Source of the DNA: Escherichia phage T7
Strand: one strand, 5' to 3'
Length of the DNA stretch: 36,575 bases
Sequence record: MZ375294.1
In this document: piece by piece, positions 1 through 36,575 of the stretch
How the letters are laid out: each line of letters begins with the position of its first letter
Position numbering within the stretch: the first letter of the stretch is position 1
The notes under the pieces: model-generated
Databases searched by the model: none
Told to the model about the DNA's origin: nothing
Seen by the model: only the letters and a program-made list of their open reading frames with translations
Made by a program: the position numbers and the translations under genes

Positions 1-143
1 TCTCACAGTGTACGGACCTAAAGTTCCCCCCATAGGGTGTACCTAAAGCCCAGCCAATCACCTAAAGTCAACCTTCGGTTGACCTTGAGGGTTCCCTAAG
101 GGTTTGTCTTTGGGTGTTACCTTGAGTGTCTCTCTGTGTCCCT
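1..143 (+). repeat. Left direct terminal repeat (T7-type terminal redundancy)
   Basis: Bases 1-143 are repeated exactly at 36433-36575; begins TCTCACAGTGTACGG as in T7 genome ends. Confidence 0.95.
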
Positions 144-330
144 CTCTGTTACAGTCTCCTAAAGTATCCTCCTAAAGTCACCTCCTAACGTCCATCCTAA
201 AGCCAACACCTAAAGCCAACACCTAAAGACCCATCAAGTCACCGCCTATCTTAAAGTTTAAACATAAAGACCAGACCTAAAGACCAGACCTAAAGACACT
301 ACATAAAGACCAGACCTAAAGACGCCTTGT
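144..330 (+). repeat. Left-end array of short CCTAAAG / ACCTAAAGAC-type repeats (concatemer-junction/packaging region)
   Basis: Many closely spaced copies of cctaaag and agaccagacctaaag motifs; tandem 13-bp unit ctaaagccaacac x2 at 197-222. Confidence 0.8.
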
Positions 331-370: not shown

Positions 371-393
371 TAATACAACTCACTATAGGGAGA
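371..393 (+). promoter_or_regulatory. T7 RNAP promoter phiOL (replication-associated, left end)
   Basis: taatacaactcactatagggaga; 22/23 match to the T7 promoter consensus, A at -11. Confidence 0.85.
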
Positions 394-2478: not shown

Positions 2479-5130
2479 ATGAACACGATTAACATCGCTA
2501 AGAACGACTTCTCTGACATCGAACTGGCTGCTATCCCGTTCAACACTCTGGCTGACCATTACGGTGAGCGTTTAGCTCGCGAACAGTTGGCCCTTGAGCA
2601 TGAGTCTTACGAGATGGGTGAAGCACGCTTCCGCAAGATGTTTGAGCGTCAACTTAAAGCTGGTGAGGTTGCGGATAACGCTGCCGCCAAGCCTCTCATC
2701 ACTACCCTACTCCCTAAGATGATTGCACGCATCAACGACTGGTTTGAGGAAGTGAAAGCTAAGTGCGGCAAGCGCCCGACAGCCTTCCAGTTCCTGCAAG
2801 AAATCAAGCCGGAAGCCGTAGCGTACATCACCATTAAGACCACTCTGGCTTGCCTAACCAGTGCTGACAATACAACCGTTCAGGCTGCAGCAAGCGCAAT
2901 CGGTCGGGCCATTGAGGACGAGGCTCGCTTCGGTCGTATCCGTGACCTTGAAGCTAAGCACTTCAAGAAAAACGTTGAGGAACAACTCAACAAGCGCGTA
3001 GGGCACGTCTACAAGAAAGCATTTATGCGAGTTGTCGAGGCTGACATGCTCTCTAAGGGTCTACTCGGTGGCGAGGCGTGGTCTTCGTGGCATAAGGAAG
3101 ACTCTATTCATGTAGGAGTACGCTGCATCGAGATGCTCATTGAGTCAACCGGAATGGTTAGCTTACACCGCCAAAATGCTGGCGTAGTAGGTCAAGACTC
3201 TGAGACTATCGGACTCGCACCTGAATACGCTGAGGCTATCGCAACCCGTGCAGGTGCGCTGGCTGGCATCTCTCCGATGTTCCAACCTTGCGTAGTTCCT
3301 CCTAAGCCGTGGACTGGCATTACTGGTGGTGGCTATTGGGCTAACGGTCGTCGTCCTCTGGCGCTGGTGCGTACTCACAGTAAGAAAGCACTGATGCGCT
3401 ACGAAGACGTTTACATGCCTGAGGTGTACAAAGCGATTAACATTGCGCAAAACACCGCATGGAAAATCAACAAGAAAGTCCTAGCGGTCGCCAACGTAAT
3501 CACCAAGTGGAAGCATTGTCCGGTCGAGGACATCCCTGCGATTGAGCGTGAAGAACTCCCGATGAAACCGGAAGACATCGACATGAATCCTGAGGCTCTC
3601 ACCGCGTGGAAACGTGCTGCCGCTGCTGTGTACCGCAAGGACAAGGCTCGCAAGTCTCGCCGTATCAGCCTTGAGTTCATGCTTGAGCAAGCCAATAAGT
3701 TTGCTAACCATAAGGCCATCTGGTTCCCTTACAACATGGACTGGCGCGGTCGTGTTTACGCTGTGTCAATGTTCAACCCGCAAGGTAACGATATGACCAA
3801 AGGACTGCTTACGCTGGCGAAAGGTAAACCAATCGGTAAGGAAGGTTACTACTGGCTGAAAATCCACGGTGCAAACTGTGCGGGTGTCGATAAGGTTCCG
3901 TTCCCTGAGCGCATCAAGTTCATTGAGGAAAACCACGAGAACATCATGGCTTGCGCTAAGTCTCCACTGGAGAACACTTGGTGGGCTGAGCAAGATTCTC
4001 CGTTCTGCTTCCTTGCGTTCTGCTTTGAGTACGCTGGGGTACAGCACCACGGCCTGAGCTATAACTGCTCCCTTCCGCTGGCGTTTGACGGGTCTTGCTC
4101 TGGCATCCAGCACTTCTCCGCGATGCTCCGAGATGAGGTAGGTGGTCGCGCGGTTAACTTGCTTCCTAGTGAAACCGTTCAGGACATCTACGGGATTGTT
4201 GCTAAGAAAGTCAACGAGATTCTACAAGCAGACGCAATCAATGGGACCGATAACGAAGTAGTTACCGTGACCGATGAGAACACTGGTGAAATCTCTGAGA
4301 AAGTCAAGCTGGGCACTAAGGCACTGGCTGGTCAATGGCTGGCTTACGGTGTTACTCGCAGTGTGACTAAGCGTTCAGTCATGACGCTGGCTTACGGGTC
4401 CAAAGAGTTCGGCTTCCGTCAACAAGTGCTGGAAGATACCATTCAGCCAGCTATTGATTCCGGCAAGGGTCTGATGTTCACTCAGCCGAATCAGGCTGCT
4501 GGATACATGGCTAAGCTGATTTGGGAATCTGTGAGCGTGACGGTGGTAGCTGCGGTTGAAGCAATGAACTGGCTTAAGTCTGCTGCTAAGCTGCTGGCTG
4601 CTGAGGTCAAAGATAAGAAGACTGGAGAGATTCTTCGCAAGCGTTGCGCTGTGCATTGGGTAACTCCTGATGGTTTCCCTGTGTGGCAGGAATACAAGAA
4701 GCCTATTCAGACGCGCTTGAACCTGATGTTCCTCGGTCAGTTCCGCTTACAGCCTACCATTAACACCAACAAAGATAGCGAGATTGATGCACACAAACAG
4801 GAGTCTGGTATCGCTCCTAACTTTGTACACAGCCAAGACGGTAGCCACCTTCGTAAGACTGTAGTGTGGGCACACGAGAAGTACGGAATCGAATCTTTTG
4901 CACTGATTCACGACTCCTTCGGTACCATTCCGGCTGACGCTGCGAACCTGTTCAAAGCAGTGCGCGAAACTATGGTTGACACATATGAGTCTTGTGATGT
5001 ACTGGCTGATTTCTACGACCAGTTCGCTGACCAGTTGCACGAGTCTCAATTGGACAAAATGTCAGCACTTCCGGCTAAAGGTAACTTGAACCTCCGTGAC
5101 ATCTTAGAGTCGGACTTCGCGTTCGCGTAA
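2479..5130 (+). CDS. 1: T7 RNA polymerase (gene 1), single-subunit DNA-directed RNA polymerase
   Basis: 883-aa ORF starting MNTINIAKNDFSDIELAAIPF and ending ILESDFAFA. Confidence 0.98.
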   Translation: MNTINIAKNDFSDIELAAIPFNTLADHYGERLAREQLALEHESYEMGEARFRKMFERQLKAGEVADNAAAKPLITTLLPKMIARINDWFEEVKAKCGKRPTAFQFLQEIKPEAVAYITIKTTLACLTSADNTTVQAAASAIGRAIEDEARFGRIRDLEAKHFKKNVEEQLNKRVGHVYKKAFMRVVEADMLSKGLLGGEAWSSWHKEDSIHVGVRCIEMLIESTGMVSLHRQNAGVVGQDSETIGLAPEYAEAIATRAGALAGISPMFQPCVVPPKPWTGITGGGYWANGRRPLALVRTHSKKALMRYEDVYMPEVYKAINIAQNTAWKINKKVLAVANVITKWKHCPVEDIPAIEREELPMKPEDIDMNPEALTAWKRAAAAVYRKDKARKSRRISLEFMLEQANKFANHKAIWFPYNMDWRGRVYAVSMFNPQGNDMTKGLLTLAKGKPIGKEGYYWLKIHGANCAGVDKVPFPERIKFIEENHENIMACAKSPLENTWWAEQDSPFCFLAFCFEYAGVQHHGLSYNCSLPLAFDGSCSGIQHFSAMLRDEVGGRAVNLLPSETVQDIYGIVAKKVNEILQADAINGTDNEVVTVTDENTGEISEKVKLGTKALAGQWLAYGVTRSVTKRSVMTLAYGSKEFGFRQQVLEDTIQPAIDSGKGLMFTQPNQAAGYMAKLIWESVSVTVVAAVEAMNWLKSAAKLLAAEVKDKKTGEILRKRCAVHWVTPDGFPVWQEYKKPIQTRLNLMFLGQFRLQPTINTNKDSEIDAHKQESGIAPNFVHSQDGSHLRKTVVWAHEKYGIESFALIHDSFGTIPADAANLFKAVRETMVDTYESCDVLADFYDQFADQLHESQLDKMSALPAKGNLNLRDILESDFAFA

Positions 5131-5138
5131 CGCCAAAT

Positions 5139-5161
5139 TAATACGACTCACTATAGAGGGA
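5139..5161 (+). promoter_or_regulatory. T7 RNAP promoter phi1.1A
   Basis: taatacgactcactatagaggga. Confidence 0.9.
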
Positions 5162-6912: not shown

Positions 6913-6935
6913 TTTTACGACTCACTAAAGGAGGT
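6913..6935 (+). promoter_or_regulatory. T7 RNAP promoter phi1.5, upstream edge altered (TTT instead of TAA at -17 to -15)
   Basis: tttTACGACTCACTAAAGGAGGT; positions -14 to +6 are promoter-like, -17 to -15 replaced by the deletion junction. Confidence 0.65.
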
Positions 6936-7773: not shown

Positions 7774-8352
7774 ATGGCTAAGAAGATTTTCACCTCTGCG
7801 CTGGGTACCGCTGAACCTTACGCTTACATCGCCAAGCCGGACTACGGCAACGAAGAGCGTGGCTTTGGGAACCCTCGTGGTGTCTATAAAGTTGACCTGA
7901 CTATTCCCAACAAAGACCCGCGCTGCCAGCGTATGGTCGATGAAATCGTGAAGTGTCACGAAGAGGCTTATGCTGCTGCCGTTGAGGAATACGAAGCTAA
8001 TCCACCTGCTGTAGCTCGTGGTAAGAAACCGCTGAAACCGTATGAGGGTGACATGCCGTTCTTCGATAACGGTGACGGTACGACTACCTTTAAGTTCAAA
8101 TGCTACGCGTCTTTCCAAGACAAGAAGACCAAAGAGACCAAGCACATCAATCTGGTTGTGGTTGACTCAAAAGGTAAGAAGATGGAAGACGTTCCGATTA
8201 TCGGTGGTGGCTCTAAGCTGAAAGTTAAATATTCTCTGGTTCCATACAAGTGGAACACTGCTGTAGGTGCGAGCGTTAAGCTGCAACTGGAATCCGTGAT
8301 GCTGGTCGAACTGGCTACCTTTGGTGGCGGTGAAGACGATTGGGCTGACTAA
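7774..8352 (+). CDS. 2.5: Single-stranded DNA-binding protein gp2.5, truncated by premature TAA (192 aa; acidic C-terminal tail codons remain in frame downstream to 8472)
   Basis: ORF MAKKIFTSALGTAEPYAYIAKPDYGNEERGF...GGEDDWAD then TAA at 8350-8352; same frame continues VEENGYVASGSAKASKPRDEESWDEDDEESEEADEDGDF to TAA at 8470-8472. Confidence 0.9.
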   Translation: MAKKIFTSALGTAEPYAYIAKPDYGNEERGFGNPRGVYKVDLTIPNKDPRCQRMVDEIVKCHEEAYAAAVEEYEANPPAVARGKKPLKPYEGDMPFFDNGDGTTTFKFKCYASFQDKKTKETKHINLVVVDSKGKKMEDVPIIGGGSKLKVKYSLVPYKWNTAVGASVKLQLESVMLVELATFGGGEDDWAD

Positions 8353-15907: not shown

Positions 15908-15930
15908 TAATACGACTCACTATAGGGAGA
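15908..15930 (+). promoter_or_regulatory. T7 RNAP promoter phi6.5 (class III consensus)
   Basis: taatacgactcactatagggaga. Confidence 0.92.
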
Positions 15931-17250: not shown

Positions 17251-18861
17251 ATGGCTGAGAAACGAACAGGACTTGCGGAGGATGGCGCAAAGTCTGTCTA
17301 TGAGCGTTTAAAGAACGACCGTGCTCCCTATGAGACACGCGCTCAGAATTGCGCTCAATATACCATCCCATCATTGTTCCCTAAGGACTCCGATAACGCC
17401 TCTACAGATTATCAAACTCCGTGGCAAGCCGTGGGCGCTCGTGGTCTGAACAATCTAGCCTCTAAGCTCATGCTGGCTCTATTCCCTATGCAGACTTGGA
17501 TGCGACTTACTATATCTGAATATGAAGCAAAGCAGTTACTGAGCGACCCCGATGGACTCGCTAAGGTCGATGAGGGCCTCTCGATGGTAGAGCGTATCAT
17601 CATGAACTACATTGAGTCTAACAGTTACCGCGTGACTCTCTTTGAGGCTCTCAAACAGTTAGTCGTAGCTGGTAACGTCCTGCTGTACCTACCGGAACCG
17701 GAAGGGTCAAACTATAATCCCATGAAGCTGTACCGATTGTCTTCTTATGTGGTCCAACGAGACGCATTCGGCAACGTTCTGCAAATGGTGACTCGTGACC
17801 AGATAGCTTTTGGTGCTCTCCCTGAGGACATCCGTAAGGCTGTAGAAGGTCAAGGTGGTGAGAAGAAAGCTGATGAGACAATCGACGTGTACACTCACAT
17901 CTATCTGGATGAGGACTCAGGTGAATACCTCCGATACGAAGAGGTCGAGGGTATGGAAGTCCAAGGCTCCGATGGGACTTATCCTAAAGAGGCTTGCCCA
18001 TACATCCCGATTCGGATGGTCAGACTAGATGGTGAATCCTACGGTCGTTCGTACATTGAGGAATACTTAGGTGACTTACGGTCCCTTGAAAATCTCCAAG
18101 AGGCTATCGTCAAGATGTCCATGATTAGCTCTAAGGTTATCGGCTTAGTGAATCCTGCTGGTATCACCCAGCCACGCCGACTGACCAAAGCTCAGACTGG
18201 TGACTTCGTTACTGGTCGTCCAGAAGACATCTCGTTCCTCCAACTGGAGAAGCAAGCAGACTTTACTGTAGCTAAAGCCGTAAGTGACGCTATCGAGGCT
18301 CGCCTTTCGTTTGCCTTTATGTTGAACTCTGCGGTTCAGCGTACAGGTGAACGTGTGACCGCCGAAGAGATTCGGTATGTAGCTTCTGAACTTGAAGATA
18401 CTTTAGGTGGTGTCTACTCTATCCTTTCTCAAGAATTACAATTGCCTCTGGTACGAGTGCTCTTGAAGCAACTACAAGCCACGCAACAGATTCCTGAGTT
18501 ACCTAAGGAAGCCGTAGAGCCAACCATTAGTACAGGTCTGGAAGCAATTGGTCGAGGACAAGACCTTGATAAGCTGGAGCGGTGTGTCACTGCGTGGGCT
18601 GCACTGGCACCTATGCGGGACGACCCTGATATTAACCTTGCGATGATTAAGTTACGTATTGCCAACGCTATCGGTATTGACACTTCTGGTATTCTACTCA
18701 CCGAAGAACAGAAGCAACAGAAGATGGCCCAACAGTCTATGCAAATGGGTATGGATAATGGTGCTGCTGCGCTGGCTCAAGGTATGGCTGCACAAGCTAC
18801 AGCTTCACCTGAGGCTATGGCTGCTGCCGCTGATTCCGTAGGTTTACAGCCGGGAATTTAA
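17251..18861 (+). CDS. 8: Head-to-tail connector (portal) protein gp8
   Basis: 536-aa ORF MAEKRTGLAEDGAKSVYERLKNDRAPYETRAQNCAQYTIPSLFP...; in-frame ATG 15 nt upstream at 17236. Confidence 0.95.
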   Translation: MAEKRTGLAEDGAKSVYERLKNDRAPYETRAQNCAQYTIPSLFPKDSDNASTDYQTPWQAVGARGLNNLASKLMLALFPMQTWMRLTISEYEAKQLLSDPDGLAKVDEGLSMVERIIMNYIESNSYRVTLFEALKQLVVAGNVLLYLPEPEGSNYNPMKLYRLSSYVVQRDAFGNVLQMVTRDQIAFGALPEDIRKAVEGQGGEKKADETIDVYTHIYLDEDSGEYLRYEEVEGMEVQGSDGTYPKEACPYIPIRMVRLDGESYGRSYIEEYLGDLRSLENLQEAIVKMSMISSKVIGLVNPAGITQPRRLTKAQTGDFVTGRPEDISFLQLEKQADFTVAKAVSDAIEARLSFAFMLNSAVQRTGERVTAEEIRYVASELEDTLGGVYSILSQELQLPLVRVLLKQLQATQQIPELPKEAVEPTISTGLEAIGRGQDLDKLERCVTAWAALAPMRDDPDINLAMIKLRIANAIGIDTSGILLTEEQKQQKMAQQSMQMGMDNGAAALAQGMAAQATASPEAMAAAADSVGLQPGI

Positions 18862-18881
18862 TACAACTCACTATAGGGAGA
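18859..18881 (+). promoter_or_regulatory. T7 RNAP promoter phi9
   Basis: taatacaactcactatagggaga (A at -11). Confidence 0.85.
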
Positions 18882-18960: not shown

Positions 18961-19884
18961 ATGGCTGAATCTAATGCAGACGTATATGCATCTTTTGGCG
19001 TGAACTCCGCTGTGATGTCTGGTGGTTCCGTTGAGGAACATGAGCAGAACATGCTGGCTCTTGATGTTGCTGCCCGTGATGGCGATGATGCAATCGAGTT
19101 AGCGTCAGACGAAGTGGAAACAGAACGTGACCTGTATGACAACTCTGACCCGTTCGGTCAAGAGGATGACGAAGGCCGCATTCAGGTTCGTATCGGTGAT
19201 GGCTCTGAGCCGACCGATGTGGACACTGGAGAAGAAGGCGTTGAGGGCACCGAAGGTTCCGAAGAGTTTACCCCACTGGGCGAGACTCCAGAAGAACTGG
19301 TAGCTGCCTCTGAGCAACTTGGTGAGCACGAAGAGGGCTTCCAAGAGATGATTAACATTGCTGCTGAGCGTGGCATGAGTGTCGAGACCATTGAGGCTAT
19401 CCAGCGTGAGTACGAGGAGAACGAAGAGTTGTCCGCCGAGTCCTACGCTAAGCTGGCTGAAATTGGCTACACGAAGGCTTTCATTGACTCGTATATCCGT
19501 GGTCAAGAAGCTCTGGTGGAGCAGTACGTAAACAGTGTCATTGAGTACGCTGGTGGTCGTGAACGTTTTGATGCACTGTATAACCGCCTTGAGACGCACA
19601 ACCCTGAGGCTGCACAGTCGCTGGATAATGCGTTGACCAATCGTGACTTAGCGACCGTTAAGGCTATCATCAACTTGGCTGGTGAGTCTCGCGCTAAGGC
19701 GTTCGGTCGTAAGCCAACTCGTAGTGTGACTAATCGTGCTATTCCGGCTAAACCTCAGGCTACCAAGCGTGAAGGCTTTGCGGACCGTAGCGAGATGATT
19801 AAAGCTATGAGTGACCCTCGGTATCGCACAGATGCCAACTATCGTCGTCAAGTCGAACAGAAAGTAATCGATTCGAACTTCTGA
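18961..19884 (+). CDS. 9: Capsid assembly (scaffolding) protein gp9
   Basis: 307-aa acidic ORF MAESNADVYASFGVNSAVMSGGSVEEHEQNMLALDV... Confidence 0.95.
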   Translation: MAESNADVYASFGVNSAVMSGGSVEEHEQNMLALDVAARDGDDAIELASDEVETERDLYDNSDPFGQEDDEGRIQVRIGDGSEPTDVDTGEEGVEGTEGSEEFTPLGETPEELVAASEQLGEHEEGFQEMINIAAERGMSVETIEAIQREYEENEELSAESYAKLAEIGYTKAFIDSYIRGQEALVEQYVNSVIEYAGGRERFDALYNRLETHNPEAAQSLDNALTNRDLATVKAIINLAGESRAKAFGRKPTRSVTNRAIPAKPQATKREGFADRSEMIKAMSDPRYRTDANYRRQVEQKVIDSNF

Positions 19885-19897
19885 TAGACTTCGAAAT

Positions 19898-19920
19898 TAA
19901 TACGACTCACTATATGGAGA
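19898..19920 (+). promoter_or_regulatory. T7 RNAP promoter phi10 with T instead of G at +1
   Basis: taatacgactcacTATATGGAGA; followed by the s10 leader and RBS aagaaggagatatacatATG. Confidence 0.85.
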
Positions 19921-19977
19921 CCACAACGGTTTCCCTCTAGAAATAATTTTGTTTAACTTTAAGAAGGAGATATACAT

Positions 19978-21015
19978 ATGGCTAGCATGACTGGTGGACA
20001 GCAAATGGGTACTAACCAAGGTAAAGGTGTAGTTGCTGCTGGAGATAAACTGGCGTTGTTCTTGAAGGTATTTGGCGGTGAAGTCCTGACTGCGTTCGCT
20101 CGTACCTCCGTGACCACTTCTCGCCACATGGTACGTTCCATCTCCAGCGGTAAATCCGCTCAGTTCCCTGTTCTGGGTCGCACTCAGGCAGCGTATCTGG
20201 CTCCGGGCGAGAACCTCGACGATAAACGTAAGGACATCAAACACACCGAGAAGGTAATCACCATTGACGGTCTCCTGACGGCTGACGTTCTGATTTATGA
20301 TATTGAGGACGCGATGAACCACTACGACGTTCGCTCTGAGTATACCTCTCAGTTGGGTGAATCTCTGGCGATGGCTGCGGATGGTGCGGTTCTGGCTGAG
20401 ATTGCCGGTCTGTGTAACGTGGAAAGCAAATATAATGAGAACATCGAGGGCTTAGGTACTGCTACCGTAATTGAGACCACTCAGAACAAGGCCGCACTTA
20501 CCGACCAAGTTGCGCTGGGTAAGGAGATTATTGCGGCTCTGACTAAGGCTCGTGCGGCTCTGACCAAGAACTATGTTCCGGCTGCTGACCGTGTGTTCTA
20601 CTGTGACCCAGATAGCTACTCTGCGATTCTGGCAGCACTGATGCCGAACGCAGCAAACTACGCTGCTCTGATTGACCCTGAGAAGGGTTCTATCCGCAAC
20701 GTTATGGGCTTTGAGGTTGTAGAAGTTCCGCACCTCACCGCTGGTGGTGCTGGTACCGCTCGTGAGGGCACTACTGGTCAGAAGCACGTCTTCCCTGCCA
20801 ATAAAGGTGAGGGTAATGTCAAGGTTGCTAAGGACAACGTTATCGGCCTGTTCATGCACCGCTCTGCGGTAGGTACTGTTAAGCTGCGTGACTTGGCTCT
20901 GGAGCGCGCTCGCCGTGCTACCTTCCAAGCGGACCAGATTATCGCTAAGTACGCAATGGGCCACGGTGGTCTTCGCCCAGAAGCTGCTGGTGCAGTGGTT
21001 TTCAAAGTGGAGTAA
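19978..21015 (+). CDS. 10A: Major capsid protein gp10A
   Basis: 345-aa ORF MASMTGGQQMGTNQGKGVVAAGDKLALF... ending VVFKVE. Confidence 0.97.
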   Translation: MASMTGGQQMGTNQGKGVVAAGDKLALFLKVFGGEVLTAFARTSVTTSRHMVRSISSGKSAQFPVLGRTQAAYLAPGENLDDKRKDIKHTEKVITIDGLLTADVLIYDIEDAMNHYDVRSEYTSQLGESLAMAADGAVLAEIAGLCNVESKYNENIEGLGTATVIETTQNKAALTDQVALGKEIIAALTKARAALTKNYVPAADRVFYCDPDSYSAILAALMPNAANYAALIDPEKGSIRNVMGFEVVEVPHLTAGGAGTAREGTTGQKHVFPANKGEGNVKVAKDNVIGLFMHRSAVGTVKLRDLALERARRATFQADQIIAKYAMGHGGLRPEAAGAVVFKVE

Positions 21016-21173: not shown

Positions 21174-21221
21174 CTAGCATAACCCCTTGGGGCCTCTAAA
21201 CGGGTCTTGAGGGGTTTTTTG
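21174..21221 (+). terminator. Tphi, T7 RNA polymerase terminator
   Basis: ctagcataaccccttggggcctctaaacgggtcttgaggggttttttg: GC hairpin plus U-run. Confidence 0.95.
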
Positions 21222-21852: not shown

Positions 21853-24237
21853 ATGGCACTCATTAGCCAATCAATCAAGAACTTGAAGGGTGGTATCAGC
21901 CAACAGCCTGACATCCTTCGTTATCCAGACCAAGGGTCACGCCAAGTTAACGGTTGGTCTTCGGAGACCGAGGGCCTCCAAAAGCGTCCACCTCTTGTTT
22001 TCTTAAATACACTTGGAGACAACGGTGCGTTAGGTCAAGCTCCGTACATCCACCTGATTAACCGAGATGAGCACGAACAGTATTACGCTGTGTTCACTGG
22101 TAGCGGAATCCGAGTGTTCGACCTTTCTGGTAACGAGAAGCAAGTTAGGTATCCTAACGGTTCCAACTACATCAAGACCGCTAATCCACGTAACGACCTG
22201 CGAATGGTTACTGTAGCAGACTATACGTTCATCGTTAACCGTAACGTTGTTGCACAGAAGAACACAAAGTCTGTCAACTTACCAAATTACAACCCTAATC
22301 AAGACGGATTGATTAACGTTCGTGGTGGTCAGTATGGTAGGGAACTAATTGTACACATTAACGGTAAAGACGTTGCGAAGTATAAGATACCAGATGGTAG
22401 TCAACCTGAACACGTAAACAATACGGATGCCCAATGGTTAGCTGAAGAGTTAGCCAAGCAGATGCGCACTAACTTGTCTGATTGGACTGTAAATGTAGGG
22501 CAAGGGTTCATCCATGTGACCGCACCTAGTGGTCAACAGATTGACTCCTTCACGACTAAAGATGGCTACGCAGACCAGTTGATTAACCCTGTGACCCACT
22601 ACGCTCAGTCGTTCTCTAAGCTGCCACCTAATGCTCCTAACGGCTACATGGTGAAAATCGTAGGGGACGCCTCTAAGTCTGCCGACCAGTATTACGTTCG
22701 GTATGACGCTGAGCGGAAAGTTTGGACTGAGACTTTAGGTTGGAACACTGAGGACCAAGTTCTATGGGAAACCATGCCACACGCTCTTGTGCGAGCCGCT
22801 GACGGTAATTTCGACTTCAAGTGGCTTGAGTGGTCTCCTAAGTCTTGTGGTGACGTTGACACCAACCCTTGGCCTTCTTTTGTTGGTTCAAGTATTAACG
22901 ATGTGTTCTTCTTCCGTAACCGCTTAGGATTCCTTAGTGGGGAGAACATCATATTGAGTCGTACAGCCAAATACTTCAACTTCTACCCTGCGTCCATTGC
23001 GAACCTTAGTGATGACGACCCTATAGACGTAGCTGTGAGTACCAACCGAATAGCAATCCTTAAGTACGCCGTTCCGTTCTCAGAAGAGTTACTCATCTGG
23101 TCCGATGAAGCACAATTCGTCCTGACTGCCTCGGGTACTCTCACATCTAAGTCGGTTGAGTTGAACCTAACGACCCAGTTTGACGTACAGGACCGAGCGA
23201 GACCTTTTGGGATTGGGCGTAATGTCTACTTTGCTAGTCCGAGGTCCAGCTTCGCGTCCATCCACAGGTACTACGCTGTGCAGGATGTCAGTTCCGTTAA
23301 GAATGCTGAGGACATTACATCACACGTTCCTAACTACATCCCTAATGGTGTGTTCAGTATTTGCGGAAGTGGTACGGAAAACTTCTGTTCGGTACTATCT
23401 CACGGGGACCCTAGTAAAATCTTCATGTACAAATTCCTGTACCTGAACGAAGAGTTAAGGCAACAGTCGTGGTCTCATTGGGACTTTGGGGAAAACGTAC
23501 AGGTTCTAGCTTGTCAGAGTATCAGCTCAGATATGTATGTGATTCTTCGCAATGAGTTCAATACGTTCCTAGCTAGAATCTCTTTCACTAAGAACGCCAT
23601 TGACTTACAGGGAGAACCCTATCGTGCCTTTATGGACATGAAGATTCGATACACGATTCCTAGTGGAACATACAACGATGACACATTCACTACCTCTATT
23701 CATATTCCAACAATTTATGGTGCAAACTTCGGGAGGGGCAAAATCACTGTATTGGAGCCTGATGGTAAGATAACCGTGTTTGAGCAACCTACGGCTGGGT
23801 GGAATAGCGACCCTTGGCTGAGACTCAGCGGTAACTTGGAGGGACGCATGGTGTACATTGGGTTCAACATTAACTTCGTATATGAGTTCTCTAAGTTCCT
23901 CATCAAGCAGACTGCCGACGACGGGTCTACCTCCACGGAAGACATTGGGCGCTTACAGTTACGCCGAGCGTGGGTTAACTACGAGAACTCTGGTACGTTT
24001 GACATTTATGTTGAGAACCAATCGTCTAACTGGAAGTACACAATGGCTGGTGCCCGATTAGGCTCTAACACTCTGAGGGCTGGGAGACTGAACTTAGGGA
24101 CCGGACAATATCGATTCCCTGTGGTTGGTAACGCCAAGTTCAACACTGTATACATCTTGTCAGATGAGACTACCCCTCTGAACATCATTGGGTGTGGCTG
24201 GGAAGGTAACTACTTACGGAGAAGTTCCGGTATTTAA
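21853..24237 (+). CDS. 12: Tail tubular protein B gp12
   Basis: 794-aa ORF MALISQSIKNLKGGISQQPDILRYPDQGS... Confidence 0.95.
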   Translation: MALISQSIKNLKGGISQQPDILRYPDQGSRQVNGWSSETEGLQKRPPLVFLNTLGDNGALGQAPYIHLINRDEHEQYYAVFTGSGIRVFDLSGNEKQVRYPNGSNYIKTANPRNDLRMVTVADYTFIVNRNVVAQKNTKSVNLPNYNPNQDGLINVRGGQYGRELIVHINGKDVAKYKIPDGSQPEHVNNTDAQWLAEELAKQMRTNLSDWTVNVGQGFIHVTAPSGQQIDSFTTKDGYADQLINPVTHYAQSFSKLPPNAPNGYMVKIVGDASKSADQYYVRYDAERKVWTETLGWNTEDQVLWETMPHALVRAADGNFDFKWLEWSPKSCGDVDTNPWPSFVGSSINDVFFFRNRLGFLSGENIILSRTAKYFNFYPASIANLSDDDPIDVAVSTNRIAILKYAVPFSEELLIWSDEAQFVLTASGTLTSKSVELNLTTQFDVQDRARPFGIGRNVYFASPRSSFASIHRYYAVQDVSSVKNAEDITSHVPNYIPNGVFSICGSGTENFCSVLSHGDPSKIFMYKFLYLNEELRQQSWSHWDFGENVQVLACQSISSDMYVILRNEFNTFLARISFTKNAIDLQGEPYRAFMDMKIRYTIPSGTYNDDTFTTSIHIPTIYGANFGRGKITVLEPDGKITVFEQPTAGWNSDPWLRLSGNLEGRMVYIGFNINFVYEFSKFLIKQTADDGSTSTEDIGRLQLRRAWVNYENSGTFDIYVENQSSNWKYTMAGARLGSNTLRAGRLNLGTGQYRFPVVGNAKFNTVYILSDETTPLNIIGCGWEGNYLRRSSGI

Positions 24238-36432: not shown

Positions 36433-36575
36433 TCTCACAGTGTACGGACCTAAAGTTCCCCCCATAGGGTGTACCTAAAGCCCAGCCAATCACCTAAAGT
36501 CAACCTTCGGTTGACCTTGAGGGTTCCCTAAGGGTTTGTCTTTGGGTGTTACCTTGAGTGTCTCTCTGTGTCCCT
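36433..36575 (+). repeat. Right direct terminal repeat
   Basis: Exact copy of bases 1-143. Confidence 0.95.

What the first reader, a model, noticed from the sequence alone, without database searches (positions are those of the whole stretch)
19898..19920. phi10, the capsid-gene promoter, has T instead of G at the +1 start site
The sequence is TAATACGACTCACTATA-TGG-AGA, whereas phi6.5, phi13, phi17 and phiOR in this same window all read ...TATAGGGAGA. The downstream s10 leader and RBS (gggagaccacaacggtttccctctagaaataattttgtttaactttaagaaggagatatacatATG) are otherwise canonical. T7 RNA polymerase strongly prefers to initiate with G at +1 and +2, so T at position 19915 is predicted to weaken or shift initiation at the strongest late promoter and lower gene 10 mRNA output.
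Basis: partly seen in the sequence, partly recalled or inferred. Interest (0 to 1): 0.65.

Follow-up and report, generated by a model that had tools for sequence, protein, structure and literature searches.

The report
Weakened capsid promoter in lab-evolved T7
The main capsid-gene promoter of this laboratory-evolved, genome-reduced phage T7 really does start with T instead of G; this promoter-weakening point mutation arose and spread during a published CRISPR-driven passage experiment, so it is real but fairly ordinary.

Summary
Window 19898-19920 is T7 promoter phi10 with one change, G to T at +1 (19915 = T7 22904).

The window is a complete 36.6-kb genome of a T7 mutant from the CiPGr genome-reduction experiment (Yuan et al. 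2022): 300 transfers on E. coli MG1655 carrying Cas9, lambda-Red and an sgRNA library.

The T is not a sequencing error. It is in 34 of 38 independently sequenced clones from transfers 120-300, in none of 23 earlier clones, and in no other T7-group record.

Published in-vitro data for exactly this variant (TAATACGACTCACTATATG) give about 8% of wild-type output. Published phi10 knockouts cost T7 little fitness, because gene 10 is also transcribed by read-through from phi9 and promoters further upstream.

The others are phi9 A-6G, phi9 G-11A (this window), phi10 G-11A, and T-to-C just before the gene 10 ATG. Chance expects 0.4 (p about 1e-4). The T7 RNA polymerase also gained five amino-acid changes.

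Whether the weakening was selected or hitch-hiked is unresolved. Interest is modest.

The parts
19898..19920 (+). T7 class III promoter phi10 (-17..+6), 22/23 consensus, with T instead of G at +1 (19915 = T7 22904)
   Evidence: V01146 annotates the phi10 start at 22904.
19915..19977 (+). phi10 leader: 5' stem-loop (19915-19935) and s10 ribosome-binding region up to the gene 10 ATG. Unchanged except for its first base.
   Evidence: Folding keeps the hairpin but loses the terminal G-C pair (-19.3 to -15.6 kcal/mol).
19978..21015 (+). Gene 10A (major capsid protein), the gene driven by phi10. Carries N315T.
18859..18881 (+). Promoter phi9 with G-11A (18865 = T7 21854). It is the next promoter upstream and its read-through transcripts also carry gene 10. 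The change is private to this window.
   Evidence: None of 160 matching records carries it.
18961..19884 (+). Gene 9 (scaffolding protein), between phi9 and phi10. Carries H209R.
15908..15930 (+). Promoter phi6.5, an intact consensus copy and the first class III promoter. A further source of read-through transcripts reaching gene 10.
   Evidence: Transcript organisation is described.
21221..21221 (+). Position of terminator Tphi (T7 24210), which ends the transcripts that carry gene 10.
   Evidence: Annotation. Offset of 2989.
371..393 (+). Promoter phiOL with A+1G (388 = T7 405), a change towards the consensus present in every evolved clone examined.
5139..5161 (+). Promoter phi1.1A with C-17T (5139 = T7 5831), towards the consensus and private to this window among the genomes compared.
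   Evidence: -17C gives about 88% of wild type in vitro.
2479..5130 (+). Gene 1 (T7 RNA polymerase) with R96C, V137A, Q184R, E245G and P862S, and no synonymous change.

Best explanation
This is a genuine, de novo G-to-T transversion at the +1 start site of the T7 late promoter phi10. It is carried by a clone of the laboratory CiPGr genome-reduction lineage (T7 passaged 300 times on E. coli MG1655 with Cas9, lambda-Red and an sgRNA/repair-template library). It arose between transfers 110 and 120 and became the majority allele, then the only sampled one.

Mechanism. T7 RNA polymerase still binds, because -17..-1 is intact. It can no longer start with GTP at +1, so productive initiation from phi10 falls roughly ten-fold. 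The remaining starts are most likely at the G of +2, or heterogeneous. Gene 10 mRNA is then supplied mainly by read-through from phi9, phi6.5 and promoters further upstream, which keeps the phage viable.

Shown: the mutation, its lineage history, and the in-vitro weakness of this exact sequence with wild-type polymerase. Inferred: the +2 start, the size of the drop in gene 10 mRNA in this phage (perhaps 40% from phi10 alone, more with the phi9 G-11A also present here), and the cause of its spread.

I judge it somewhat more likely than not (about 0.5) that lower phi9/phi10 output was itself favoured or at least cost-free in that regime, because the gene 9/10 control region was hit repeatedly and independently. 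The confidence given is for the core claim: a real, partial loss-of-function promoter allele buffered by read-through.
For: Sequence.

Lineage: the window starts at T7 base 1 and differs from V01146 by 54 substitutions, nine gene-sized deletions and an 18-bp deletion in the terminal repeat. The relatives are 'Mutant Escherichia phage T7 clone T7_<transfer><L|S>', from Yuan et al. 2022.

History: the T is in 33 records plus T7_250L, which is 34 of the 38 clones from transfers 120-300. It is in 0 of 23 earlier clones and in none of the other T7-group records.

De novo origin: no T7 promoter or other T7 site has T at this position, so there is no donor for gene conversion.

Weakness: Komura et al. 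2018 S2 file gives G+1T 13.8 against wild type 169 +/- 19; G+1A gives 68. Changes in the initiation region affect initiation more than binding. There is 5' heterogeneity with non-G +1.

Buffering: a phi10 knockout alone gives a non-significant fitness loss, phi9 and phi10 knockouts have about equal effects on 10A RNA, and the double knockout gives -84 to -86%.

Recurrence: 8 of 147 distinct substitutions lie in the 391 bp of T7 promoters (1.44 expected, p = 1.1e-4). Five of the 10 interior non-coding events lie in the ~100 bp of phi9 plus phi10-to-ATG (p = 1.1e-4 against other non-coding DNA). The clones that keep a wild-type phi10 after transfer 120 (140L, 150L, 170L) all carry phi9 A-6G, which gives about 28% in vitro. 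250L has a second phi10 hit and the window has a second hit in phi9.

Recombination was active: all four allele combinations of 22904 and 23910 occur, and the G allele was still present at transfer 220. Yet the T was not purged.
Against: No transcription or fitness measurement exists for this phage or this allele in vivo.

The 8% figure rests on one barcode (supported by related double mutants) and on wild-type polymerase. The polymerase here carries five substitutions.

Evidence that the allele may be costly: at transfers 140, 150 and 170 the large-plaque clone has a wild-type phi10 and the small-plaque clone has the T. The three clones selected for infectivity on the plain host all have a wild-type phi10. 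T7_300L, which carries the T, has a burst size of 2.1 against 143.

Four of the eight promoter hits are -11 G<->A exchanges that could be gene conversion between phiOL and consensus promoters, so they may reflect mutational bias rather than selection.
Confidence: 0.8

Rival explanations
1. Passenger mutation. The allele weakens phi10 as described, but it is neutral or mildly deleterious. It spread only because it sat on genomes that acquired Cas9-escaping deletions, which sweep repeatedly in this regime. This rival concerns why it spread, not what it does.
For: The regime imposes repeated hard sweeps and yielded about 60 point mutations per genome. Late clones are very unfit on the plain host (burst 2.1 against 143). 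L/S pairs at transfers 140, 150 and 170 put the T in the small-plaque clone. Clones selected on the plain host lack it. A phi10 knockout has only a small cost, so it could ride along.
Against: Recombination was frequent and the G allele persisted for at least 100 transfers, yet the T still went to 16/16 clones from transfer 230 on. Hits cluster significantly in the gene 9/10 control DNA, and the competing lineage has an independent phi9 down-mutation.
Confidence: 0.35
2. CRISPR-escape mutation. G+1T removes a Cas9 PAM, or mismatches a spacer that was present in the library or acted off-target.
For: The authors say 23.5% of T7 point mutations lie in spacer or PAM regions. G+1T destroys the AGG PAM of protospacer -21..-2. 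It also lies at position 12 of a phi10-specific protospacer, TCACTATAGGGAGACCACAA|CGG, which has a 2-mismatch relative at phi3.8, next to a targeted gene.
Against: Known essential genes were excluded from spacer design, and phi10 lies between essential genes 9 and 10. The two PAM-using protospacers are pure promoter consensus with perfect copies at phi6.5, phi13 and phiOR, none of which changed. phiOL evolved towards the same PAM and target. PAM-critical positions are 19.6% of the genome and hold 20.4% of the SNPs, so there is no enrichment. phi9 A-6G would be PAM-distal in the analogous site. The spacer list itself could not be read.
Confidence: 0.07
3. Co-evolved polymerase. In this background the mutant RNA polymerase (R96C, V137A, Q184R, E245G, P862S) has altered initiation properties, so phi10-T is not actually weak or is preferentially used.
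For: There are five non-synonymous and no synonymous changes in gene 1, acquired stepwise. R96 lies in the 93-101 loop that contacts -17..-13, and E245 lies just past the 232-242 intercalating loop. After phi9/phi10 knockouts, T7 RNAP evolved K95T, E222A and I761M in an independent study.
Against: When the T arose (transfer 120) the polymerase carried only Q184R. None of the five residues is known to me to select the initiating nucleotide. No literature was found on these substitutions.
Confidence: 0.1
4. Sequencing or assembly error at 19915.
For: None, beyond its being a single-base difference.
Against: The same base is in 34 independently isolated and sequenced clones, with a coherent time course.
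Confidence: 0.01

Closest known systems
Wild-type T7 class III promoter phi10 (T7 22887-22909), the promoter used in pET vectors
   Same: Same locus and same -17..-1 and +2..+6 sequence, same leader, RBS and gene.
   Different: +1 is T instead of G. No natural T7 promoter has a pyrimidine at +1. The mutant 23-mer is absent from 2.9 million viral contigs, whereas the wild-type 23-mer occurs about 100 times.
In-vitro promoter variant #7756, TAATACGACTCACTATATG, of Komura et al. 2018 (PMC5937735)
   Same: Identical sequence from -17 to +6. Measured output about 8% of wild type.
   Different: That was a synthetic template with commercial polymerase in vitro. Here it is the native capsid promoter of a viable phage with a mutated polymerase.
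Engineered phi9 and phi10 knockouts of T7 (Paff et al. 2018, PMC6068830)
   Same: Loss of promoter function upstream of genes 9 and 10. Viability is kept through read-through transcripts. The polymerase changes afterwards, including K95T next to the R96C seen here.
   Different: Those were designed 18-23 bp replacements that abolish the promoter and were made as attenuations. Here single-base, partial-loss alleles arose spontaneously and spread.
Natural A-initiating T7 promoters phiOL and phi2.5
   Same: T7-type promoters with a non-G at +1 that still function. The only two natural consensus-context non-G examples found in viral contigs are phiOL-like with A at +1.
   Different: They start with a purine. 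G+1A keeps about 40% activity in vitro against about 8% for G+1T. In this lineage phiOL itself changed from A to G.

Membership tests
T7 class III (late) promoter | 23-bp consensus TAATACGACTCACTATAGGGAGA from -17 to +6 | tested here: inconclusive
   22 of 23 positions match. The binding region -17..-5 and the TATA melting region are intact. The single mismatch is +1.
T7 class III (late) promoter | G at +1 and +2 as initiating nucleotides | tested here: not met
   +1 is T and +2 is G. All 17 wild-type T7 promoters have a purine at +1.
T7 class III (late) promoter | Located at the orthologous position, upstream of a late gene with its leader | tested here: met
   Collinear with V01146, where the phi10 start is annotated at 22904, 63 nt before the gene 10 ATG.
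T7 class III (late) promoter | Strong transcription by T7 RNA polymerase | not testable with these tools
   Published in-vitro value for the identical sequence is about 8% of wild type. Nothing has been measured for this phage or its mutant polymerase.
CRISPR-escape mutation of the CiPGr experiment | Lies in the PAM or seed of a spacer present in the library | not testable with these tools
   The spacer tables are supplementary and not held. The design excluded known essential genes.
CRISPR-escape mutation of the CiPGr experiment | All equally good targets of the same spacer must also escape or be lost | tested here: not met
   For the two protospacers whose PAM includes +1, perfect copies at phi6.5, phi13 and phiOR are unchanged in the window. 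This does not apply to the phi10-specific protospacer with +1 at position 12.
Gene conversion between promoter copies | A donor copy carrying the new base exists in the genome | tested here: not met
   No T7 site within one mismatch of CTCACTATATGGAG has T at that position. It is met for the -11 G<->A changes, whose donor would be phiOL or the consensus promoters.

The most novel reading that the evidence does not exclude
The weakening of phi10 is not an accident. It would be part of a convergent, adaptive retuning of T7 late transcription in this host and regime. Independent lineages each lowered phi9 or phi10 output or changed the gene 10 start region, phiOL was strengthened, and the polymerase co-evolved (R96C, E245G, P862S). 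This would imply that the strongest T7 promoters are supra-optimal once the genome is reduced or the host is MG1655 carrying Cas9 and lambda-Red. It would also imply that point mutations, not only gene loss, shape the fitness of the 'minimal' T7 genomes.
Probability: 0.35. Interest if true: 0.5.

Novelty: new variant of a known kind. Interest (0 to 1): 0.3.

Why it matters
Taken alone it is a point mutant of the best-studied promoter in molecular biology, with a predictable effect, in a laboratory strain. It matters in two modest ways.

First, the source study attributes the collapse in burst size of its smallest T7 (143 to 2.1) to gene loss. Its main text mentions promoters only for the sgRNA cassette. 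These genomes also carry a crippled capsid promoter, a truncated gp2.5 and a five-fold mutated polymerase, all of which are confounders for anyone using them as 'minimal' chassis.

Second, the repeated, independent hits on phi9, phi10 and the gene 10 start region give a ready-made natural experiment on whether capsid and scaffold expression in T7 is optimised.

Tried and rejected
- Sequencing error: rejected, because 34 sibling genomes share the base.
- T7Select or other engineered vector origin: considered at first from memory, then dropped once the records identified the CiPGr clones.
- Accession-number searches in the paper library found nothing. A generic search was uninformative. Clone names found the paper.
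- The supplementary spacer list is not held, so the CRISPR-escape rival could only be tested indirectly.
- Creation or loss of a host sigma-70 promoter or terminator by the change: none in mutant or wild type.
- Gene conversion as the source of the T: no donor exists.
- Loss of the 5' leader hairpin: it is kept, minus one base pair.
- Loss of Tphi antitermination by G-rich abortive RNAs from phi10 (Lee et al. 2010): judged minor, because these RNAs act in trans and five other intact promoters in the window start with the same GGGAGA. This is inference.
- Literature on the five polymerase substitutions: nothing relevant.
- A citable statement that initiation shifts to +2 when +1 is not G: not found. 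Only 5' heterogeneity could be cited, and Helm et al. 1999 is not held. The +2 start is therefore my inference, based on recollection of Imburgio et al. 2000.
- The single-substitution G-11A value was not in the stored part of the Komura table, so the strength of the window's phi9 allele is unknown. -11 G is retained in 93% of active variants, and the natural phiOL has -11A.

Full report
1. THE OBSERVATION

Window 19898-19920 reads TAATACGACTCACTATATGGAGA, and the T is at 19915. A scan for the 23-bp T7 consensus with up to 3 mismatches finds 10 copies, where shuffles give none. phi6.5, phi13, phi17 and phiOR are perfect copies. A looser scan recovers 16 T7-type promoters. Downstream, the leader, Shine-Dalgarno region and start of gene 10 are identical to reference T7. 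The T is the only difference from V01146 across window 19600-20300.

2. WHAT THE WINDOW IS

The window begins at T7 base 1 and is collinear with T7. Against V01146 it carries:
- 54 substitutions;
- nine gene-sized deletions (genes 0.4-0.6, 1.4, 1.7, 3.8, 4.3, 4.7, 5.3, 7.7 and 19.5);
- an 18-bp deletion in the terminal repeat.

Its closest relatives are GenBank records MZ375233-MZ375293, 'Mutant Escherichia phage T7 clone T7_<transfer><L|S>'. The clone names lead to Yuan et al. 2022 (NAR, PMC9825161). In that study T7 was transferred 300 times on E. coli MG1655 carrying a Cas9/lambda-Red plasmid and a library of sgRNA plus repair-template cassettes. Largest (L) and smallest (S) plaques were sequenced every 10 transfers.

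The window is not any record in the collection, because its phi9 G-11A occurs in none of 160 matching records. It is nearest to the 290L, 300L and 300S clones.

3. HISTORY OF THE ALLELE

A 61-bp query centred on the site is matched exactly by 33 records, all between MZ375255 (T7_120L) and MZ375292 (T7_300S). All other T7-group records differ.

Direct genotyping gave the following:
- G in 100L.2 and 110S;
- T in 120L, 250L, 270S, 290L, 300L, 300S and the window;
- G in 140L, 150L, 170L and 220S.

The T is therefore in 0 of 23 clones up to transfer 110, in 34 of 38 from transfers 120-300, and in 16 of 16 from transfer 230 on. For records I did not fetch, the transfer numbers are interpolated from the accession order, which every fetched record fits.

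No T7 site offers a donor for the T, so it is a de novo transversion. The mutant 23-mer is absent from 2.9 million viral contigs, while the wild-type 23-mer occurs about 100 times. The only two natural non-G variants in a consensus context have A at +1 and are phiOL-like.

4. WHAT IT DOES

The exact variant has been measured. In the barcoded in-vitro library of Komura et al. 2018, TAATACGACTCACTATATG followed by GAGA gave 13.8 RNA reads per DNA read. The wild type gave 169 +/- 19.

| Variant | RNA/DNA ratio |
|---|---|
| Wild type | 169 +/- 19 |
| G+1T (this allele) | 13.8 |
| A-17 with +1T | 10.9 |
| G+1A | 68 |
| -17C | 149 |
| phi9-type A-6G | 46 and 49 |

Reviews state three relevant points. 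Changes in the melting and initiation region affect initiation rather than binding. 5' heterogeneity appears when +1 G is replaced by A, U or C. U in the first transcribed positions promotes abortive cycling, and no natural T7 promoter has U before +6.

I infer that residual starts use the G at +2. This rests on my recollection of Imburgio et al. 2000, which I could not read here. I also infer, from established knowledge of T7 lysozyme's preferential inhibition of weakly initiating promoters, that the in-vivo loss late in infection may exceed the in-vitro figure.

The leader hairpin survives with one pair fewer. No host-type promoter or terminator is created or lost.

5. WHY THE PHAGE TOLERATES IT

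T7 late transcripts are polycistronic and end only at Tphi, after gene 10. Paff et al. 2018 replaced phi9 and/or phi10 with non-promoter DNA. They found that each single knockout lowered fitness only slightly (not significant for phi10, P = 0.0749). The two single knockouts had about equal effects on gene 10A RNA. The double knockout reduced it by 84-86% yet left almost 30 doublings per hour.

A phi10 at about 8% strength should therefore remove roughly the phi10 share of gene 10 mRNA, on the order of 40%. The window's additional phi9 G-11A should remove more. Its strength is unknown. -11 G is kept in 93% of active variants, but the natural phiOL works with -11A.

6. THE WIDER PATTERN

In 13 evolved genomes compared with V01146 there are 147 distinct substitutions. 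Eight lie in the 391 bp of T7 promoters, where 1.44 are expected (p = 1.1e-4). They are:
- phiOL +1 A>G (in all evolved clones);
- phiOL -11 A>G (150L, 170L);
- phi1.1A -17 C>T (window);
- phi9 -6 A>G (100L.2, 140L, 150L, 170L, plus T7_5t1 and T7_5t2);
- phi9 -11 G>A (window);
- phi10 -11 G>A (250L, on top of +1T);
- phi10 +1 G>T;
- phi13 -11 G>A (220S).

A further change, T>C immediately before the gene 10 ATG (T7 22966), occurs in 170L, 220S, 230S, 250L, T7_5t2 and T7_5t3.

Five of the ten substitution events in interior non-coding DNA fall in the ~100 bp made up of phi9 plus phi10-to-ATG (p = 1.1e-4 against other non-coding DNA). The four other perfect class III promoters took one hit in 92 bp. 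Twelve of the 13 evolved genomes carry at least one of these gene 9/10 cis-changes.

The three post-120 clones with a wild-type phi10 and a phi9 A-6G allele show that two lineages coexisted, each with a partial-loss allele in one of the two adjacent promoters.

The four -11 G<->A events can be explained by gene conversion between phiOL (naturally -11A) and the consensus promoters, which is plausible in a lambda-Red host. They are therefore weak evidence for selection. The +1T and -6G changes have no donor.

The polymerase gained Q184R (by transfer 100), V137A (by 220), R96C and E245G (by 290), and P862S, with no synonymous change. R96 lies in the 93-101 loop that contacts -17..-13. In Paff's knockout lines the polymerase acquired K95T, E222A and I761M.

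7. SELECTED OR PASSENGER?

For selection or tolerance:
- the clustering and functional parallelism described above;
- pervasive recombination, since all four 22904/23910 allele combinations occur;
- persistence of the G allele to transfer 220 without purging the T.

For a costly passenger:
- the regime creates repeated sweeps of Cas9-escaping genomes;
- at transfers 140, 150 and 170 the large-plaque clone has a wild-type phi10 and the small-plaque clone has the T;
- the three clones selected on the plain host have a wild-type phi10;
- T7_300L has a burst size of 2.1 against 143.

I put selection or tolerance in the passage environment at about 0.5 and hitch-hiking at about 0.35.

8. CRISPR ESCAPE

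The authors report that 23.5% of T7 point mutations lie in spacers or PAMs, and G+1T does destroy an AGG PAM. Several points count against escape:
- Known essential genes were excluded from spacer design.
- The two protospacers that use +1 as PAM are pure promoter consensus, with perfect copies at phi6.5, phi13 and phiOR that remain intact.
- phiOL evolved towards that same target.
- SNPs are not enriched at PAM-critical positions (20.4% against 19.6%).

One phi10-specific protospacer has +1 at position 12 and a 2-mismatch relative at phi3.8. It cannot be excluded without the spacer table, which is not held.

9. COMPARISON WITH WHAT IS KNOWN, AND VERDICT

This is the known promoter phi10 carrying a known-type down-mutation, in public genomes from a published experiment. 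In that paper's main text the word 'promoter' refers only to the sgRNA cassette.

It works like the engineered phi10 knockouts of Paff et al., but it is a spontaneous, single-base, partial-loss allele. It fails one defining feature of a class III promoter, the initiating G at +1.

Novelty is low: a new variant of a known kind. Interest is modest. The useful points are the unreported clustering of hits on gene 9/10 control DNA and the caveat it raises for ascribing the fitness of 'minimal' T7 genomes to gene loss alone.

Noticed in passing
window 7774-8352 (stop created at 8350 = T7 9734 G>T): Gene 2.5 (single-stranded DNA-binding protein) is truncated to 192 aa by E193*, against 232 aa in wild type. 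This removes the acidic C-terminal tail, which I recall being described as essential. The change is shared with 250L, 290L, 300L and 300S, so something in this background must tolerate or suppress it (candidates: gene 5 A8D and K404T, gene 4 M316I).
   Followed up: partly
window 2479-5130 (gene 1): T7 RNA polymerase carries R96C, V137A, Q184R, E245G and P862S with no synonymous change, acquired stepwise over the passages. R96C lies in the loop that contacts promoter positions -17 to -13, next to the K95T that arose in published phi9/phi10 knockout lines.
   Followed up: partly
window 18859-18881 (A at 18865): phi9 has G-11A, which makes it identical to the evolved phiOL. The change is private to this window (0 of 160 records). 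The same -11 G>A occurs in phi10 of T7_250L and in phi13 of T7_220S, and the reverse change occurs in phiOL of 150L and 170L. This suggests gene conversion among promoter copies.
   Followed up: partly
window 371-393 (G at 388): phiOL changed from A to G at +1, towards the class III consensus, in every evolved clone examined from transfer 100 on. This is the opposite direction to the phi9 and phi10 changes.
   Followed up: partly
L009 (T7_220S) 19802 = T7 22966; not in the window: A T>C change immediately before the gene 10 ATG recurs in six clones (170L, 220S, 230S, 250L, T7_5t2, T7_5t3), including two of the three clones selected on the plain host. Its effect on translation initiation is unknown.
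   Followed up: partly
window 1-260 and 36433-36575: The left end (T7 140-260) is the densest cluster of substitutions in the series, with 14 distinct SNPs in 120 bp across the clones. The window has three of them, plus an 18-bp deletion (T7 99-116) inside the terminal repeat that is mirrored at the right end. Some of these calls may be alignment artefacts in repetitive DNA.
   Followed up: no
window 6913-6935: The designed deletion of gene 1.4 clipped the first bases of promoter phi1.5 (TAAT to TTTT at -17..-14), so this class II promoter is also altered in all evolved clones.
   Followed up: no
whole window: The substitution spectrum of the series is rich in transversions (C>A 32, T>G 22, T>A 13 of 147), and non-synonymous changes greatly outnumber synonymous ones in the window (about 35 to 5). 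This is consistent with the Ka/Ks > 1 that the authors report.
   Followed up: no
Yuan et al. 2022 (PMC9825161), T7_300L: The published burst size of T7_300L is 2.1 against 143 for wild type, and is attributed to gene loss. The clone also carries phi10 +1T, gp2.5 E193* and the five polymerase changes, which were not considered as causes.
   Followed up: no
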